From positions 1 through 51,303 of IMG/VR virus record IMGVR_UViG_3300038406_000089: a DNA stretch of 51,303 nucleotides; one strand, 5' to 3'. Below, piece by piece: positions 1,330-51,303 of the stretch. Source of the DNA: a virus (taxonomy: Duplodnaviria > Caudoviricetes). The translations under genes and the position numbers were made by a program. Below the pieces are notes generated by a model. The model had not been told where the DNA came from. It ran no database searches and saw nothing but the letters and a program-made list of their open reading frames with translations. The first letter of the stretch is position 1, and each line of letters starts with the position of its first letter.

Positions 1330-1605
1330 TCAACATCCTCCTCGAATCACTCTCGCGTTGTGGATTGCTGCAACCGTCGTGCCGGCGGCAAATCCGATAG
1401 CGATGCCCTTCGCCAGCTTGCGCGGCTTCATGTTCGGTAGCGTGAACGAGAAGAACACCGTGCTCCCGCCTTTTGCCGCACCGATCAGATACGGGTTGCT
1501 CGACCAGTAGGTGCGCTCGACACAACCCCGGTTGAGTCCGATAGCCGTCGTCGTGATGTCCGCTCCCTGTGCCAGCCACAACCACAGCAGCAAGCCCTTC
1601 ATCAT
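1330..1605 (-). CDS. Small membrane protein
   Basis: Hydrophobic segments; AQGADITTT...NP...HN pattern; AGGAG RBS. Confidence 0.6.
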   Translation of the reverse strand: MMKGLLLWLWLAQGADITTTAIGLNRGCVERTYWSSNPYLIGAAKGGSTVFFSFTLPNMKPRKLAKGIAIGFAAGTTVAAIHNARVIRGGC

Positions 1606-1615
1606 TTCTCCTTTG

Positions 1616-1807
1616 TTATTTGAATCCTATGCTTCTCAATCCTCTGCGTTCCTTGTCTATCCAATCAAGCAGTGGCTGATTAGCATGATCGGCTCTCGGT
1701 TGTTCATGCACTGCTTCTATCAGTCTGATGAAGTCAAGCTGCGCAGCGGGATTGGAGATCCACGTTTCCATGAATCTCTCAAGCCTCGATACCAACCTCT
1801 TTGCCAT
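1616..1807 (-). CDS. Hypothetical protein
   Basis: 63-aa ORF with GGGAG RBS, fits gene tiling. Confidence 0.5.
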   Translation of the reverse strand: MAKRLVSRLERFMETWISNPAAQLDFIRLIEAVHEQPRADHANQPLLDWIDKERRGLRSIGFK

Positions 1808-1821
1808 TACTCATTCTCCCT

Positions 1822-2235
1822 TTGTGCCACTTCTTTGTGACATGCCAGTACGCCCCTATCTATAGATAGGGGGGCGTGTACTGACACGTGAGTTTGTGAC
1901 AAATACCCTACTTGGCACGTTGTCTCTGGTAGTAAAACGCCGTCTCTCGACCCCTCGGAGTGAACTTGTACGTGCCCCGCCCGGCGCCTTTAACTAGTTT
2001 CAAATCCAACAACTTATGAAGACTCCGGTAGAACGTCCTGCGATTCAAGTCGCTGGCGGTCTGCCAATCCTCGACGGTGAATACCTCGTCACTAGTGTTT
2101 TCTATTGTGACAGCACAAAGTAGCAAATCCCTCAATGAATCCGAAGTTAGTGACATGACATAAGGTGGCACAACCGTCGAATTTTCCAATGAAAGCACGA
2201 GACTCTGCTGGCACGAACGCACTCCCATTGTGACA
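1822..2235. other. Putative replication origin: 20-bp palindrome plus TTGTG(A/C)CA repeats
   Basis: CCCCTATCTATAGATAGGGG at 1853-1872; TTGTGMCA at 1822, 1835, 1894, 2105, 2228 and inverted at 2166; spans the 3' end of the helicase gene. Confidence 0.5.
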
Positions 2236-7195: not shown

Positions 7196-7535
7196 TGCAA
7201 CCTCCATGCCTGCCCCGGTCCAAGCGAGAATGGACTGCCCCGGTCCCGCCGAATCCAGACCCCGGCCTGCATGCAAAGCACGTGCCATGCGGCGACTGGC
7301 ACGCACCTTGCATGCGGCGCGCGCTTGGCACGGAGCTTGCTTGTGCTTCGTGTCCACTTCGCTGTCTCGGAATAGCACGCGCTAAACTACTCCAGTAGCA
7401 CGGCTTGTGCCAACCTGTTCCACCCTAGAACACGCCTATGTTTCGAGACGGAGCATACGCCAGCGTCCACGATTGCGGACAATCGGCGTTTTCCTTAGTG
7501 TTTTCGTGTCCTAACGGTATGGCATGACGTGTGCT
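7196..7535. promoter_or_regulatory. Divergent cluster of six sigma-54 (-24/-12) motifs
   Basis: Minus: AGGCATGGAGGTTGCA 7196-7211, TGGCACGTGCTTTGCA 7272-7287, TGGCACAAGCCGTGCT 7397-7412. Plus: TGGCACGCACCTTGCA 7297-7312, TGGCACGGAGCTTGCT 7326-7341, TGGCATGACGTGTGCT 7520-7535. All keep GG-N10-GC spacing. Confidence 0.8.
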
Positions 7536-7595
7536 CTATACGGTGGCGTGAGCCGATGGCGTGAGCCGACAAGCTCAAAGCACACGGAGGATGTC

Positions 7596-8090
7596 ATGCA
7601 ATCATGGCAGGGAAAGCCTGCCAGCGTCTTTTACTGGCCTGAACTCGGCCAATGGTTCGGCCGCGATGCGAACGGTTCGCACGTGGCGATTACTGAAAGG
7701 GAGGCGATAGAGCGTATGGCAGAGACAACTAGCGCACGTTGTTACGAGCACAGGGACAGAGACACGCTGCCGTCACTCTGTCACACGTGCCAGCGTATCG
7801 CAGTCGAGCGAGACATCGTTACGCGCGCTATCGATGCGCTCGTTTTGGCAGGCTATCAGGTTCGCGAGTCTGAAGACGGAGCATTTACGGATACCCGTTC
7901 CGTCTTGCTCAATCTGCTGTTTGACCTTGATGACGCGTTCGTTATCGCCAATCACAAGGAATCCGGTAAATCTGGCTGGGTTCGCTTCGTGTTCGGCAAT
8001 GACGGATACGACGTTATCAGCGACTACACTATCAGTCTTGAGTCTGTGCTAGCGCCAGTCAACGCTTACGCCGATACGCTGGCAGTCTAG
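7596..8090 (+). CDS. First early-region protein
   Basis: GGAGG RBS before ATG 7596; C-terminal GWVRFVFGNDGYDVISDY motif. Confidence 0.75.
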   Translation: MQSWQGKPASVFYWPELGQWFGRDANGSHVAITEREAIERMAETTSARCYEHRDRDTLPSLCHTCQRIAVERDIVTRAIDALVLAGYQVRESEDGAFTDTRSVLLNLLFDLDDAFVIANHKESGKSGWVRFVFGNDGYDVISDYTISLESVLAPVNAYADTLAV

Positions 8091-11510: not shown

Positions 11511-11717
11511 ATGAAAGTCTGCTCAAAGCATCCGAAGTATCGCGGCCTTTCGAAACCGCGTAGCACGTGCGAGCGTTGTTGGCAAATCTGGTTCGGTATC
11601 TGCGATTACTGCGTCAACAGCGGTTGCAGCGTGCTTGATACAGATTGCGACCTATGCTGCAGCGACACACCATACGATGAGGAGAATTGCGAAGTTGTTG
11701 TTCGCCGCAAGCGCTAG
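11511..11717 (+). CDS. Cys-rich early protein
   Basis: CSKHPKY.G...PRSTCERCWQIW plus further Cys pairs. Confidence 0.6.
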   Translation: MKVCSKHPKYRGLSKPRSTCERCWQIWFGICDYCVNSGCSVLDTDCDLCCSDTPYDEENCEVVVRRKR

Positions 11718-11730
11718 CCCGCCTGCACTC

Positions 11731-11773
11731 GGGACTATACTCTAGCAAGCTCTAGTAACTAGAGTATAGTCCC
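11731..11773. repeat. 15-bp perfect inverted repeat closing the early operon
   Basis: GGGACTATACTCTAG (11731-11745) / CTAGAGTATAGTCCC (11759-11773); no U-tract. Confidence 0.8.
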
Positions 11774-12161
11774 TCAATTCCCATTAGTAATGTATGTAGC
11801 GTTCGATTGTGTGTTGCTTTGGTGTGTCGATTAGGCGTGTTGACGTTCATCGCGCGTAACAATCATCAACAACACTCAGCACTCCATGTTACGGTGCATG
11901 CCTGCTCGCTATGTGCGATGCATCCATACTGCGCCGCGAGCATGAGCGCAGCATGCGGCATGCGCATCATTCGCGCCCCGATGCGCGCAGCTACTTACTG
12001 AGTTCTTGATATCAGTAAGTACATGCGTGATGCTAAGTACTTTGCGATGCAAAGCGCAGCCGGACCAGGTACGGGGGTGGACCCCCTCGCGAGGTAGTGC
12101 CGCCCCTGGGGCCGAAGGGTGGCTGCGCGAAAATTTTATAGCGGAGGGGTCTATTGCGGGT

Positions 12162-12236
12162 TGGGTGGGCGCCGGGACTCGAACCCTGATCGCTCGGTTC
12201 ACAGCCGAGTGCTCTGCCAGTTGAGCTAGCGCCCAC
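12162..12236 (-). tRNA. tRNA-His (GUG)
   Basis: G-1/TGGGCGC...GCGCCCA/C73-CCA; D arm GCTC/GAGC; anticodon arm CTCGG-CTGTGAA-CCGAG; TTCGAGT loop; irregular T-stem. Confidence 0.88.
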
Positions 12237-12951: not shown

Positions 12952-13230
12952 CTACCTGGATAGCTCTGAAGCTGCACTCGTCGGACTTTCGATCTCGTGG
13001 CATGATATGTAATACCTCCGAATGGTGTATGCTTCGTGCATTGTGGCAGCGACGATGACGGCTTCACGCAACTCAGTCGGCGTGTAGTTGGCGGCGTCGA
13101 GCTGGCACCGCAGTGAGTCAACGAGATGTCTGAACATGACATCTCTTTGGTAACGCTCCGCAGGCGGAAGATGCGCATACGTCGGTATCGTATCTGGGTC
13201 GAAGTTGCATTGCGAAGGTGATCCTATCAT
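12952..13230 (-). CDS. Hypothetical protein
   Basis: ERYQRDVMFRHLVD...YTPTELREA..VA; GGGAG RBS. Confidence 0.6.
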   Translation of the reverse strand: MIGSPSQCNFDPDTIPTYAHLPPAERYQRDVMFRHLVDSLRCQLDAANYTPTELREAVIVAATMHEAYTIRRYYISCHEIESPTSAASELSR

Positions 13231-13493
13231 ACGCTCTCCCTCTCTGTGGCGTTGGGGCGCCTCGCTGCGCTCGGCGCCCTATTCATCTCAAGCTCGAACT
13301 CGGGTACGACAGCGTGCCAAATCTCTCGAATCGGCGCACCGATGTAGTCCATCTCAAATAGCTTGTGTCGTGGCAGGTGCTCGTAGTACCACGCGCTCGG
13401 CGTGTCTACGACGAGCCCCTTGTCGAGCACCTGTGTCGGGTGCAGGATCTTGTTGCACTGGAGACACCTGTACGCAACGATGTGGCGGCTCAT
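13227..13493 (-). CDS. Hypothetical protein
   Basis: AGGAGG RBS; YRCLQC. Confidence 0.5.
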   Translation of the reverse strand: MSRHIVAYRCLQCNKILHPTQVLDKGLVVDTPSAWYYEHLPRHKLFEMDYIGAPIREIWHAVVPEFELEMNRAPSAARRPNATERESV

Positions 13494-49900: not shown

Positions 49901-50023
49901 TCACCAGATCGCGTTAGGTGGTGGCGTGTAGAAGACGAGATCCGCGAGCCACCAGATAATGAGAAGCACAATTGCTGCCATTGGCGCAGCGTAGAACGGC
50001 AGCTTAGGGTTCTGTGTAGTCAT
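49901..50023 (-). CDS. Small single-TM protein
   Basis: My translation: MTTQNPKLPFYAAPMAAIVLLIIWWLADLVFYTPPPNAIW. Confidence 0.4.
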   Translation of the reverse strand: MTTQNPKLPFYAAPMAAIVLLIIWWLADLVFYTPPPNAIW

Positions 50024-50237
50024 GCGTTGCCAGTCTCTTGCCGCCACCGAGCGGCCACTCTTCGATGAACATATAGCGGTCTTTGAGAGAGTACTTGGGA
50101 CCGCGTTCTCTTACCTCGCGCAGACACATCATCGCGGTAGAGAGCACATCGAAGATACCGTAGATCCAAGCACCGTCGTAGTCCGACTCCATCGCAACGA
50201 ACAGCACCTTAGACGATGAGCCCTGCGTGCTTGCCAT
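50004..50237 (-). CDS. Hypothetical protein
   Basis: DYDGAWIYGIFD...A...FIEEWPL. Confidence 0.55.
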   Translation of the reverse strand: MASTQGSSSKVLFVAMESDYDGAWIYGIFDVLSTAMMCLREVRERGPKYSLKDRYMFIEEWPLGGGKRLATHDYTEP

Positions 50238-50784
50238 GATTCTTCACCATCGTCCACTCGTCGCGCATCTCGCGAGCGGTGAACTCGATATCCCACGCCA
50301 ACAGCTCGGGCCTGGGCGGGCGGTAGTCTCCATTCACGAAGAACGCGAGCAGGCGCTGCTGCGGGAGTTCCAGGTGATGCCCGTAACACTTCATCTGCGT
50401 GAGGTACTTAGCGAACTTGGGATGGAACGCCGTGGCAGAGACGCGCGGCACGTCGCGGCTCGACATCCACGTGAGCTTGATTTCCCCAAGCCGCGTGACC
50501 GTCTCGTAGATGATGAGATCGGGCGTGAAGATAATGCCCTCGTCCTTCGTGACGAACTCACCAGGGCGTTCGCCAAGGCGCCGCTTCAGCCCCTCTTCGA
50601 GCACTTCCTCTAGCGCCAGTCCGGCTTCCATCCGCAGCTTGTCGGGCGCGCTTCCTTTCACGTACCGCTTCGGCTCCAGCTCCTGATAGAGCGAGTTGTA
50701 GAGATCGCTCATGTGCAGGCCGGCCGTGCGGGGCGCCGTCGAGAGTGCGAGATTGAGCCCGTGCGGGACTGGCGTTATCTTCAT
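50209..50784 (-). CDS. PD-(D/E)XK (Cas4/RecB-like) nuclease
   Basis: GLHMSDL, G.ALE, TPD...GEIK, Q.K.Y. Confidence 0.8.
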   Translation of the reverse strand: MKITPVPHGLNLALSTAPRTAGLHMSDLYNSLYQELEPKRYVKGSAPDKLRMEAGLALEEVLEEGLKRRLGERPGEFVTKDEGIIFTPDLIIYETVTRLGEIKLTWMSSRDVPRVSATAFHPKFAKYLTQMKCYGHHLELPQQRLLAFFVNGDYRPPRPELLAWDIEFTAREMRDEWTMVKNHGKHAGLIV

Positions 50785-50794
50785 GGATTAGCCT

Positions 50795-51168
50795 GAATGG
50801 TCGTAAGGATGGCTTGTGCGTTTTCTTCAGCGCTCCCATCCGGCATCTGGGCTTCGCCATCCCTACGAATCCTCGGGTCTACCGGAATTACCCGATTCTC
50901 AAACTGAGCGCAGTTTCTGGCGAGGGAGATACGGTCGGATTTCGCGATGCTCCAGGGTGGCTCGTATTGGTGCTAGCCGTCCTCGCCTGTTTTCCCTGTC
51001 TCTCGTTCCGATACTCCGCTCGCCACTTCATCGGCAGGAGCAGTGCTCTACTGCCTGTCTCAAGGTGTGGGCCGTTTACCGGGAACGCCACGGCTCCTAC
51101 AGCGTTCGATTTTCGATCAACCTACTGCCTTTGGCAGTGGTGTTGTCCCTTGTCTCGGTGGTAGTCCG
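50795..51168 (-). ncRNA. Candidate large structured non-coding RNA
   Basis: About 370-nt gap in a tightly packed arm, filled with stems (13-bp 50801-50813/50856-50868 and others); G-U pairs favour the minus strand. Confidence 0.6.
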
Positions 51169-51169
51169 A

Positions 51170-51303
51170 TTACGCTTCGAGCTTGATGAGCTGCTTCTTG
51201 TCGGCCGGGTCGTAGGTCACGCCATCGACCGCCGCAAGATTGTCGTCGTCGTAGAGGTACTTGATCACGTCGTCGCGAAGCTCGTTCTTGCCCAGCTTCT
51301 GCA
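51170..51303 (-). CDS. 3' end of the join-spanning gene that starts at 827
   Basis: In frame ...KKQLIKLEA with TAA at 51170-51172. Confidence 0.8.
   Translation of the reverse strand, partial: QKLGKNELRDDVIKYLYDDDNLAAVDGVTYDPADKKQLIKLEA

What the first reader, a model, noticed from the sequence alone, without database searches (positions are those of the whole stretch)
50795..51168. About 370-nt multi-domain structured RNA candidate with a possible kissing loop
Seen: this is the largest gap in an arm where genes otherwise abut or overlap, and it is almost fully pairable on the minus (transcribed) strand. (i) CAAGG/CCUUG (51148-52/51061-65) closes a junction containing CCACUGCC-AAA-GGCAGUAGG, UCGA-AAA-UCGA and GCCGU...ACGGC. 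(ii) GGCAG-UA-GAGC-ACU-GCUC-CUGCC (51033-55). (iii) GGCGAGG-ACGG...CCGU...CCUCGCC (50977-87/50919-34). (iv) AAACUG-CGCU-CAGUUU (50901-16). (v) UCGGGU-[AAUUCCGGUAG]-ACCCGA (50873-95). (vi) A 13-bp stem UCGUAGGGAUGGC/GCCAUCCUUACGA closes a three-way junction with CCCA-[GAUGCCGGA]-UGGG and GCG-[CUGAAGAAAA]-CGC. Loop (v) UCCGGUA is complementary over 7 bp (one G-U) to loop (vi) UGCCGGA, and a loop in (i) also carries CCGGUA. Inference: a tertiary-folded, possibly multimerising phage RNA. I do not recognise it as tmRNA, RNase P, SRP, a group I/II intron or a known small ribozyme.
Basis: partly seen in the sequence, partly recalled or inferred. Interest (0 to 1): 0.82.

Follow-up and report, generated by a model that had tools for sequence, protein, structure and literature searches.

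The report
Phage gene spacer with conserved hairpin
The 385-base gap is real non-coding sequence with several hairpins, one of them conserved in related phages, but nothing shows that it folds into one large RNA with a kissing loop.

Summary
The gap 50785-51169 is non-coding: it has no codon signature, and ORF 50888-51091 has no homologue.

As one ~370-nt folded RNA it does not hold up.
- The whole-gap folding z is -2.56, and 4 of 36 same-size windows of this genome score lower.
- Only two pieces stand out alone: the 13-bp-stem three-way junction (z -3.64) and the first hairpin after the stop codon (z -3.78).
- The 7-bp loop-loop match is at chance level (65 of 200 shuffles).
- Rfam gives only a sub-threshold "drum" hit (20.9 bits against a cut-off of 43).
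- The 3' part has no homologue in 316 kb of syntenic relatives.

In relatives this gap is a hypervariable slot filled with unrelated small ORFs, and once with a tRNA.

It recurs once per genome at the same place in 11 other loci, with compensatory changes. A natural strain variant replaces the first hairpin with a different one, loses the junction-closing stem, and carries a 65-nt replacement in hairpin iv.

Verdict: a modular intercistronic spacer, not an ornate RNA. Interest is low.

The parts
50785..51169 (-). Whole non-coding gap between the 277-aa gene (stop codon 51172-51170) and the nuclease-like gene (ATG at 50784)
   Evidence: GC at codon positions is flat (0.53-0.61) in all frames, against 0.63/0.40/0.8 in neighbouring genes. 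Codon log-odds are negative in all six frames. No tRNA. No Rfam family reaches its gathering score.
51117..51144 (-). First hairpin after the stop codon (CCACUGCC-AAA-GGCAGUAGG, one bulged A)
   Evidence: z -3.78, 0 of 200 shuffles. In the variant strain the same place holds a different hairpin: z -2.97 for the window form and -4.07 for the variant form.
51106..51116 (-). Small hairpin UCGA-AAA-UCGA
   Evidence: Present in the sequence. Not significant alone: z -0.53 in the window form, and no fold in the variant form.
51066..51101 (-). Conserved hairpin: UGU-A-GG-A-GCCGU ... ACGGC-CC-ACA. The core GGAGCCG / CGGCC is shared with relatives.
   Evidence: Model R2 hits 51049-51112 at 38.7 bits, the only copy in the 51-kb genome. 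It aligns with 11 other syntenic loci and shows compensatory pairs. The variant strain has G-C changed to G-U at 51100/51067 and loop changes at 51077.
51033..51055 (-). Hairpin ii: GGCAG-UA-GAGC-ACU-GCUC-CUGCC
   Evidence: z -2.05, 6 of 200 shuffles. Locus L004 has, at the aligned place, an outer stem differing by A-U to G-U and an inner stem of different sequence. That pairing was read by eye from the printed sequences.
50919..50987 (-). Domain iii: GGCGAGG ... CCUCGCC with internal pairings
   Evidence: Present in the sequence. z -1.43, 15 of 200 shuffles. No homologue found.
50901..50916 (-). Hairpin iv: AAACUG-CGCU-CAGUUU
   Evidence: z -0.64, 46 of 200 shuffles. In run X2 one contig replaces 50904-50907 with 65 other letters (table 5).
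50873..50895 (-). Hairpin v: UCGGGU-[11 nt]-ACCCGA
   Evidence: z -0.53, 54 of 200 shuffles. A competing hairpin AUCGGG/UCCGGU forms in the 111-nt fold.
50801..50868 (-). Domain vi: 13-bp stem closing a three-way junction with two small hairpins. It ends 16 nt before the nuclease ATG.
   Evidence: z -3.64, 1 of 200 shuffles. Inverted repeat I1. Model R1 finds no other copy in 316,236 bases of relatives. Loop-pattern scans found 0 hits in IMG/VR, and the 2 hits in GTDB genomes do not match R1.
50209..50784 (-). Downstream gene: 191-aa nuclease-like protein
   Evidence: 241 homologues at E <= 1e-10. D89, E101 and K103 are invariant in 30 sequences. No Pfam, PHROG or PDB sequence match. The PD-(D/E)XK reading rests on the motif only.
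51170..51303 (-). 3' end of the upstream 277-aa gene. The rest is at 827-3, because the record ends in a direct terminal repeat.
   Evidence: Homologues sit upstream of the nuclease gene in 35 fetched loci. No Pfam or PHROG match. There are weak structural leads to OB-fold phage families DUF669 and DUF3127, with TM below 0.5.

Best explanation
The gap is a modular intercistronic spacer in the replication and recombination operon of an uncultured sediment phage. It is not one large folded RNA.

The 5' ~140 nt are the family's usual set of hairpins after the 277-aa gene. First comes a stable hairpin about 25 nt after the stop codon. Then comes a conserved hairpin (core GGAGCCG...CGGCC, 51066-51101), followed by hairpin ii. 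In most relatives the conserved hairpin is followed by a short U-run and then the next small gene. I therefore read it as a terminator or attenuator type of element, or an element that protects the mRNA end, at the close of the 277-aa gene's message.

The window's copy has lost the U-run, so here transcription probably reads through to the nuclease gene.

The 3' ~250 nt (iii-vi) are lineage-specific filler in a slot where related phages carry unrelated small genes. The three-way junction with the 13-bp stem, just before the nuclease ribosome-binding site, may act as a 5' stabilising structure for that message.

Shown: the region is non-coding, the hairpins exist, one is conserved with compensatory changes, and the slot is hypervariable.
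Inferred: all functions, including termination, read-through and mRNA stabilisation.
For: Non-coding.

Synteny. The 277-aa gene, a gap of 145-1896 nt and the nuclease gene appear in that order in 31 loci. The small ORFs that abut the nuclease gene fall into 26 unrelated clusters among 35. One relative has tRNA-Phe in the slot.

No trace of the window's gap in relatives. There is no DNA match to the 385 nt by nhmmer or blastn, no peptide match and no match to the v+vi model.

Conserved hairpin.
- 12 of 52 sources searched (the window plus 51 loci) hold it at E <= 0.006. All 12 lie upstream of the nuclease gene; in the 11 where the 277-aa gene is on the contig, they lie between the two genes.
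- 86% of cells are paired against 73% in shuffles. The covariation score is 0.282 against 0.083, reached by 0 of 500 shuffles. Slid controls give 0.063 or less.
- One pair shows UA:7, AU:2, CG:2, GC:1. Locus L048 differs on both sides at three pairs.
- It is single-copy in the window and in the two whole records that have it.
- A U-run of 3 or more begins 1-5 nt after the stem in 8 of the 12 copies. The window has 2 U in 14 nt.

Many relatives show textbook hairpin-plus-U-run terminators just after the 277-aa gene. This was read by eye from the folds.

Strain variant (X2 and X4 contigs).
- 20 substitutions (19 of them in 51067-51159, plus 51176) and 11 indels in 51114-51166.
- No difference in 50908-51066, and one difference in the coding part 51170-51303.
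- The first hairpin is still a hairpin.
Against: - The window's copy of the conserved hairpin has no U-run. The terminator scan found 0 sites in 50300-51303, so a terminator role is not shown here.
- In relatives the U-run is offset 1-5 nt from the last modelled pair, which is not canonical.
- The stem sequence GCCG/CGGC is invariant, or nearly so. That could mean a sequence-specific protein site rather than a plain terminator.
- The covariation test is biased. 8 of the 11 training sequences were picked from a regex that required GCCG...CGGC plus at least 2 more pairs, and L048 was found with a structure-aware model.
- Domain vi and the first hairpin fold better than nearly all shuffles, so a specific function for them is not excluded.
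- No promoter-like site was found, but only the sigma-70 consensus was scanned.
- The variant rests on contigs of depth 2-3. The same changes do appear in two runs of two studies.
Confidence: 0.55

Rival explanations
1. The 3' part, especially hairpin v plus the three-way junction vi (about 100 nt), is a lineage-specific functional structured RNA. It would be carried as cargo in the variable slot: a riboregulator of the nuclease gene or a stand-alone small RNA, possibly using the CCGG loops for a tertiary or intermolecular contact.
For: - Domain vi has z -3.64, with 1 of 200 shuffles as good. With the start region included, z is -2.68, with 1 of 200.
- The gap has more candidate hairpins than shuffles: 47 against 38.5 with stems of 4 or more, and 20 against 12.6 with stems of 5 or more.
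- The slot holds variable cargo in relatives.
- There are no differences between strains over 50908-51066. Coding flanks are also about 99% identical, so this says little.
Against: - No homologue anywhere searched, so there is no covariation.
- Hairpin v is not significant and has a competing fold.
- Loop-loop complementarity is at chance level.
- About nine comparable inverted repeats (13 nt or more, at least 86% complementary, arms not overlapping) occur among the 25 listed for the 51-kb genome.
- The nearest relative has a coding ORF at this place.
Confidence: 0.17
2. The 3' part is decayed remains of small genes that once filled the slot, or of a recombination scar. It would have no function of its own, and its hairpins would be incidental.
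For: - All but the window among the relatives with enough upstream sequence have an ORF abutting the nuclease start.
- The slot turns over fast.
- The variant strain shows a 100-nt patch of about 30% divergence and a 65-nt replacement inside otherwise near-identical sequence. This is typical of recombination mosaics.
- The whole-gap z is unremarkable for this genome.
Against: - No residual protein similarity between any six-frame peptide of the gap and the relatives, or to 1.84 billion representatives for the 67-aa ORF.
- Domain vi and the first hairpin are more stable than chance.
Confidence: 0.18
3. The hairpins act on DNA. They would form a replication origin or a single-strand initiation site within the replication module, between an SSB-like gene and a nuclease.
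For: - Position among helicase (AAA_25), Sak4-like and nuclease genes.
- Short repeats in the gap: AGGCAGUAG twice and GAGACAGG twice.
- The plus strand also folds somewhat better than shuffles, z -1.85.
Against: - The repeats are at chance frequency for 385 nt (my estimate: about 0.3 expected 9-mer pairs and about 1 expected 8-mer pair).
- No iterons or AT-rich stretch.
- G-U pairs in the 13-bp stem, and the G-C to G-U change in the variant, fit RNA rather than DNA.
- GC skew shows no switch here. The profile stops at 50,000, so the gap itself was not covered.
Confidence: 0.07
4. The 3' 93 nt (50813-50905) are a divergent member of the drum RNA family (Rfam RF02958).
For: A full-length model alignment at 20.9 bits, E 0.16 for the 704-nt search. 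It shares a CCGGUA loop, GGA, AGGG and GAAGAAAACGC.
Against: - The score is below the gathering score of 43.
- Non-canonical marks fall on most pairs of the first and last helices.
- Nothing passes when the whole record is searched, and 9 of 14 control genomes also give sub-threshold hits.
- No terminator follows.
- No DUF3800 gene in the phage.
Confidence: 0.03

Closest known systems
Intercistronic hairpins and intrinsic (Rho-independent) terminators or attenuators of phage operons
   Same: G+C-rich hairpins sit directly after a gene. A U-run follows in 8 of 12 copies of the conserved hairpin. It sits at an operon junction, where other relatives carry textbook terminators.
   Different: The stem core is conserved in sequence as well as in pairing. 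It is single-copy per genome at one specific junction. The U-run is offset by 1-5 nt and is missing in the window's copy. The terminator scan does not call it.
drum RNA (Rfam RF02958; Weinberg et al. 2017, PMC5737381, passages read through the 'find' mode)
   Same: A weak full-length alignment with shared loop and linker letters. The paper's main text describes drum as an RNA of unknown, possibly sophisticated function.
   Different: 20.9 bits against a cut-off of 43. Helices are not supported. No 3' terminator, which the paper describes for drum. The paper's text on the associated protein is in a supplement I could not open.
Large ornate RNAs of phages and bacteria (GOLLD, ROOL, raiA, OLE). 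Names and properties are recalled, apart from ROOL and raiA, which PMC5737381 mentions.
   Different: No Rfam match. No conserved architecture in relatives. Folding is not exceptional for the genome. A natural variant breaks one proposed junction stem and carries a 65-nt replacement.
Kissing-loop three-way-junction leaders noted elsewhere in this scan (for example e1-5890178, an AI note that is unchecked)
   Same: A structured module in a gap next to an SSB-like gene, in a spot where related phages carry interchangeable modules.
   Different: Here the loop-loop match has no covariation support and is at chance level. No second copy or homologue exists.

Membership tests
drum RNA (RF02958) | Score at or above Rfam's gathering score (43 bits) | tested here: not met
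   20.9 bits, E 0.16. No hit when the whole record is searched. 9 of 14 control genomes ring below the cut-off.
drum RNA (RF02958) | The model's helices are formed | tested here: not met
   In the cmscan alignment, non-canonical marks fall on 3 of 4 pairs of the first helix and on the last hairpin. Part of the second helix is deleted.
drum RNA (RF02958) | Rho-independent terminator at the 3' end (PMC5737381, main text) | tested here: not met
   0 terminator-like sites in 50300-51303.
drum RNA (RF02958) | Association with a particular protein domain encoded nearby | not testable with these tools
   The domain is named only in the paper's supplementary text, which is closed. DUF3800, which the main text says may be related, is absent from the record.
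Intrinsic terminator | G+C-rich stem-loop | tested here: met
   The conserved hairpin has a 5-8 bp G+C-rich stem in all 12 copies.
Intrinsic terminator | U-tract directly after the stem | tested here: not met
   The window's copy has 2 U in the next 14 nt. In relatives, 8 of 12 copies have a U-run of 3 or more, offset 1-5 nt. The scan finds none in the window's gap.
Large multi-domain structured RNA (GOLLD/ROOL/OLE kind) | Architecture conserved across homologues, with covariation in most helices | tested here: not met
   No homologue of the 385 nt in the related loci (59 loci) and none of iii-vi (60 fetched loci plus the window). Only one hairpin is conserved, plus hairpin ii in one locus.
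Large multi-domain structured RNA (GOLLD/ROOL/OLE kind) | Match to a curated family | tested here: not met
   The only Rfam hit at gathering score in the window is a tRNA at 12165-12235.
Kissing-loop RNA | Loop-loop pairs that covary or exceed chance | tested here: not met
   65 of 200 shuffles reach 7 complementary loop bases. There are no homologues with which to test covariation.
tRNA / tmRNA | Cloverleaf recognised by ARAGORN or Rfam | tested here: not met
   0 genes in 50700-51303. No Rfam tRNA hit there.
Protein-coding gene (ORF 50888-51091) | Codon signature and homologues | tested here: not met
   Codon log-odds -0.05 against +0.16 to +0.53 for neighbouring genes. GC3 is 0.61 against 0.68-0.83. 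0 hits among 1.84 billion representatives. No Pfam or PHROG match.

The most novel reading that the evidence does not exclude
The v-vi module, perhaps with iii-iv, is a lineage-specific structured RNA carried as cargo in a hypervariable slot next to the SSB-like gene. It would be one of many interchangeable RNA or small-gene modules that this phage group swaps at that junction. It might serve, for example, as a decoy or regulator used against host defence, with the CCGG loops mediating a contact.
Probability: 0.12. Interest if true: 0.6.

Novelty: new member of a known kind. Interest (0 to 1): 0.25.

Why it matters
The result is mostly a correction. An attractive 370-nt 'ornate RNA' candidate resolves into an ordinary modular spacer.

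Two small findings remain. The first is an uncatalogued, single-copy, structure-conserved hairpin that marks the end of the SSB-like gene in a group of uncultured soil, groundwater and sediment phages. The second is a fast-evolving accessory slot between that gene and a Cas4-like nuclease, where small genes, a tRNA or non-coding sequence replace each other. Such slots are good places to look for accessory or anti-defence functions. If the orphan three-way junction proved to be a functional RNA, it would be an example of RNA cargo in such a slot.

Tried and rejected
- Whole-gap similarity searches found nothing: blastn against INPHARED phages, nhmmer and blastn against 7 and then 59 related loci, and earlier scan notes by sequence.
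- The pattern GTAGGAGCCG-N6-30-CGGCCCACA in IMG/VR gave 5 stretches. One is L004 again. By eye, three lie in coding sequence of the other strand. My estimate of the chance expectation is of the same order, so I dropped them.
- Neither half of that motif recurs in the window beyond chance as a promoter-like repeat. The first half gave 55 matches against 52.6 expected. The second gave 4 against 0.49, but the 3 extra matches each have 3 mismatches and lie in genes.
- The MAFFT/RNAalifold alignment of the window, L004 and L053 was too poorly aligned in the second hairpin to use.
- SD sequestration by domain vi: the folds disagree depending on the ends chosen, so I make no claim.
- The look-up of sequencing runs listed no RNA holder. 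Parts of the stretch without contig cover in X2-X5 carry no weight. The three differences of the X2 contig in 50843-50903 were not itemised by the tool, so hairpin v and the 5' strand of vi could not be compared.
- A GTDB genome scan with the nuclease profile found no prophage relative, so there is no host clue.
- The supplementary text of PMC5737381 on drum's neighbouring protein could not be read.
- The genome-wide z control stopped at 36 of 133 windows for lack of time.

Full report
WHAT AND WHERE. The window is a complete 51,303-bp virus record with a direct terminal repeat. On the minus strand a 277-aa gene runs 827-3 and continues at 51303-51170. A 385-nt gap follows (51169-50785), and then a 191-aa gene (50784-50209). 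Around it lie an AAA_25 helicase, a weak Sak4-like ATPase and a weak nucleotidyltransferase match, so this is a replication and recombination module. The 191-aa protein has 241 homologues at E <= 1e-10, and D89, E101 and K103 are invariant in 30 of them. It has no Pfam, PHROG or PDB sequence match, so the PD-(D/E)XK label rests on that motif. The 277-aa protein is a phage hypothetical protein with only weak structural leads to OB-fold families.

THE OBSERVATION. As a whole they are not beyond chance. The gap's z is -2.56 (1 of 100 shuffles as good), and the plus strand gives -1.85. I planned 133 same-size windows of the minus strand as a control, and 36 finished. Of those, 4 had lower z than the gap, down to -3.67.

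Piece by piece, only domain vi (z -3.64) and the first hairpin after the stop codon (z -3.78) stand out. Hairpin ii and junction i are marginal, at about -2. Domains iii, iv and v and the GCCGU/ACGGC hairpin are not significant alone. Hairpin v competes with an alternative hairpin that buries its CCGG, and it is absent from the whole-gap MFE.

The 7-bp loop-loop match is reached by 65 of 200 shuffles when any local hairpin may supply the loops. If only MFE loops are used, 0 of 150 shuffles reach 7, but the real sequence then scores only 3.

NOT A GENE. Codon-position G+C is flat, and codon log-odds are negative in all six frames, unlike the neighbouring genes. ORF 50888-51091 has no homologue among 1.84 billion representative proteins and none in Pfam or PHROGs. 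No six-frame peptide of the gap matches related loci.

KNOWN RNA FAMILIES. At gathering scores Rfam finds only a tRNA elsewhere in the window. A permissive scan of 50600-51303 gives one lead: drum (RF02958) over 50813-50905, at 20.9 bits against a cut-off of 43, E 0.16, with most pairs of two helices non-canonical. Searching the whole record gives nothing, and 9 of 14 control genomes show such sub-threshold hits. According to its describing paper drum carries a 3' terminator (PMC5737381, passages read), and none is found here. DUF3800, which that paper loosely links to drum's neighbour genes, is absent. I do not file the region under drum. ARAGORN finds no tRNA or tmRNA.

RELATIVES. The nuclease gene brought in 7 loci from IMG/VR, one more with a profile, and 51 from metagenomes. 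The best of these is 76% identical. Homologues of the 277-aa gene lie upstream in 35 loci, and in 31 loci the order gene, gap, nuclease is measurable, with gaps of 145-1896 nt.

In the relatives the gap is not empty. Nearly every one has a small ORF abutting the nuclease start. These ORFs fall into 26 unrelated clusters among 35, and one locus has tRNA-Phe there. The slot is therefore hypervariable.

The window's 385 nt match none of these loci by nhmmer or blastn. A covariance model of v+vi finds only itself in 316,236 bases. Loop-pattern scans gave 0 hits in IMG/VR and 2 chance hits in GTDB genomes that do not fit the model. In the nearest relative (L009) the 155 nt before the nuclease gene are the end of a coding-looking ORF that overlaps the start codon.

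A CONSERVED HAIRPIN. Locus L004 shares about 100 nt with the gap (positions 59-158 of the gap). The local alignment score is 51 against 29.0 +/- 4.9 for shuffles, reached by 1 of 500. L053 matches L004 over the same hairpin. Reading the first 220 nt of each relative's gap showed the same core, GGAGCCG...CGGCC, in more loci.

Eleven sequences aligned well. A model built from them found the 11, plus L048 in the syntenic gap (E 0.006), plus one weak non-syntenic hit. There was no second copy in the window. In five whole virus records the model hit once in each of two records and not at all in three.

Pair counts:
- 86.1% of cells are paired, against 73.2% in shuffles.
- The covariation score is 0.282 against 0.083, reached by 0 of 500 shuffles.
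- Slid controls give 0.063 or less.
- One pair shows UA:7, AU:2, CG:2, GC:1.
- L048 differs on both sides at three pairs.

Caveat: 8 of the 11 training sequences were chosen from a regex that demanded GCCG...CGGC and at least two more pairs, and L048 came from a structure-aware search. The statistics therefore overstate the case. The C-G to G-C swap between the otherwise alike L005/L043 and L016 copies, and the three swaps in L048, are the fairest evidence.

A U-run of 3 or more starts 1-5 nt after the stem in 8 of the 12 copies. The window's copy has 2 U in 14 nt. Hairpin ii has a counterpart in L004, with the outer stem kept (A-U to G-U) and an inner stem of different sequence. I read this by eye.

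A NATURAL VARIANT. Logan contigs from two other sediment metagenome runs of two studies (X2, X4) carry a strain that is near-identical in the flanking genes. In the 5' 100 nt of the gap they list 20 substitutions (19 of them in 51067-51159, plus 51176) and 11 indels in 51114-51166. There are no differences in 50908-51066 and one difference in 51170-51303.

I rebuilt the variant in a script and found:
- The first hairpin is replaced by another hairpin of different sequence. Its z is -2.97 in the window form and -4.07 in the variant form.
- The small second hairpin is not significant in either form.
- The conserved hairpin changes G-C to G-U at one pair, plus a loop base.
- The CAAGG strand of the stem that should close junction i is altered so that it no longer pairs with CCUUG.

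One X2 contig also replaces 50904-50907, in the 3' strand of hairpin iv, with 65 other letters. These contigs have depth 2-3, and the indel placement is the tool's.

HOW IT MOST LIKELY WORKS. The 5' part (first hairpin, conserved hairpin, hairpin ii) is the family's end-of-gene hairpin set for the 277-aa gene. Given the U-runs and the textbook terminators that other relatives carry at the same place (by eye), I infer a terminator or attenuator role, or protection of the mRNA 3' end. The window's copy has lost the U-run and probably allows read-through to the nuclease gene. The invariant stem core leaves room for a protein-binding role.

The 3' part is lineage-specific. Its one strong feature, the three-way junction with the 13-bp stem 16 nt before the nuclease ATG, may stabilise the downstream message. 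That is inference only. Rivals are a functional orphan RNA module, decayed gene remnants, a DNA-level origin, and a divergent drum RNA. They are given with odds in their own sections.

COMPARISON AND VERDICT. The closest known kind is the intercistronic hairpin or intrinsic terminator of phage operons. The conserved hairpin is an uncatalogued member of that kind, with an unusually conserved stem core and strict single-copy placement. The large, tertiary-folded, multimerising RNA is not supported. It offers an analogy for the boldest reading left open, but it is no evidence here. Interest 0.25.

Noticed in passing
window 1600-1915 (minus strand): Another gene gap, between the AAA_25 helicase gene and a 91-aa ORF, folds much better than the gap under study. 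Its z is -4.38, with 0 of 100 shuffles as good, and it has a long, nearly perfect hairpin.
   Followed up: partly
window 13091-13475, 7316-7700, 11551-11935 (minus strand): These 385-nt windows have folding z of -3.67, -3.19 and -3.10 in the genome control. They lie in or near the early/tRNA region.
   Followed up: no
L004 2350-2425: A related phage carries tRNA-Phe (GAA) in the same slot, just after its copy of the conserved hairpin and hairpin ii.
   Followed up: partly
L007 2400-2475 and L008 1243-1316: Two relatives share a 75-nt segment at 89% identity that forms a long hairpin right after the 277-aa gene, while the rest of their gaps is only 66% alike. It is a different conserved structure at the same junction.
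   Followed up: no
window 51067-51166: A 100-nt patch differs by 19 substitutions and 11 indels between two strains that are otherwise about 99% identical over the stretches covered. It is a very local mosaic or hypervariable patch just after a stop codon.
   Followed up: partly
L053 1330-1349 and 1430-1470: This relative has the conserved hairpin, and about 100 nt later a second, partial copy of its 3' half (GGCCACAUUUUGAGGAG) directly before an ATG.
   Followed up: no
window 50209-50784 and 3-827: Both flanking proteins are widespread in uncultured soil, groundwater and sediment phages but match no Pfam or PHROG family. No prophage relative was found in 185,579 GTDB species genomes, so the host is unknown.
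   Followed up: partly
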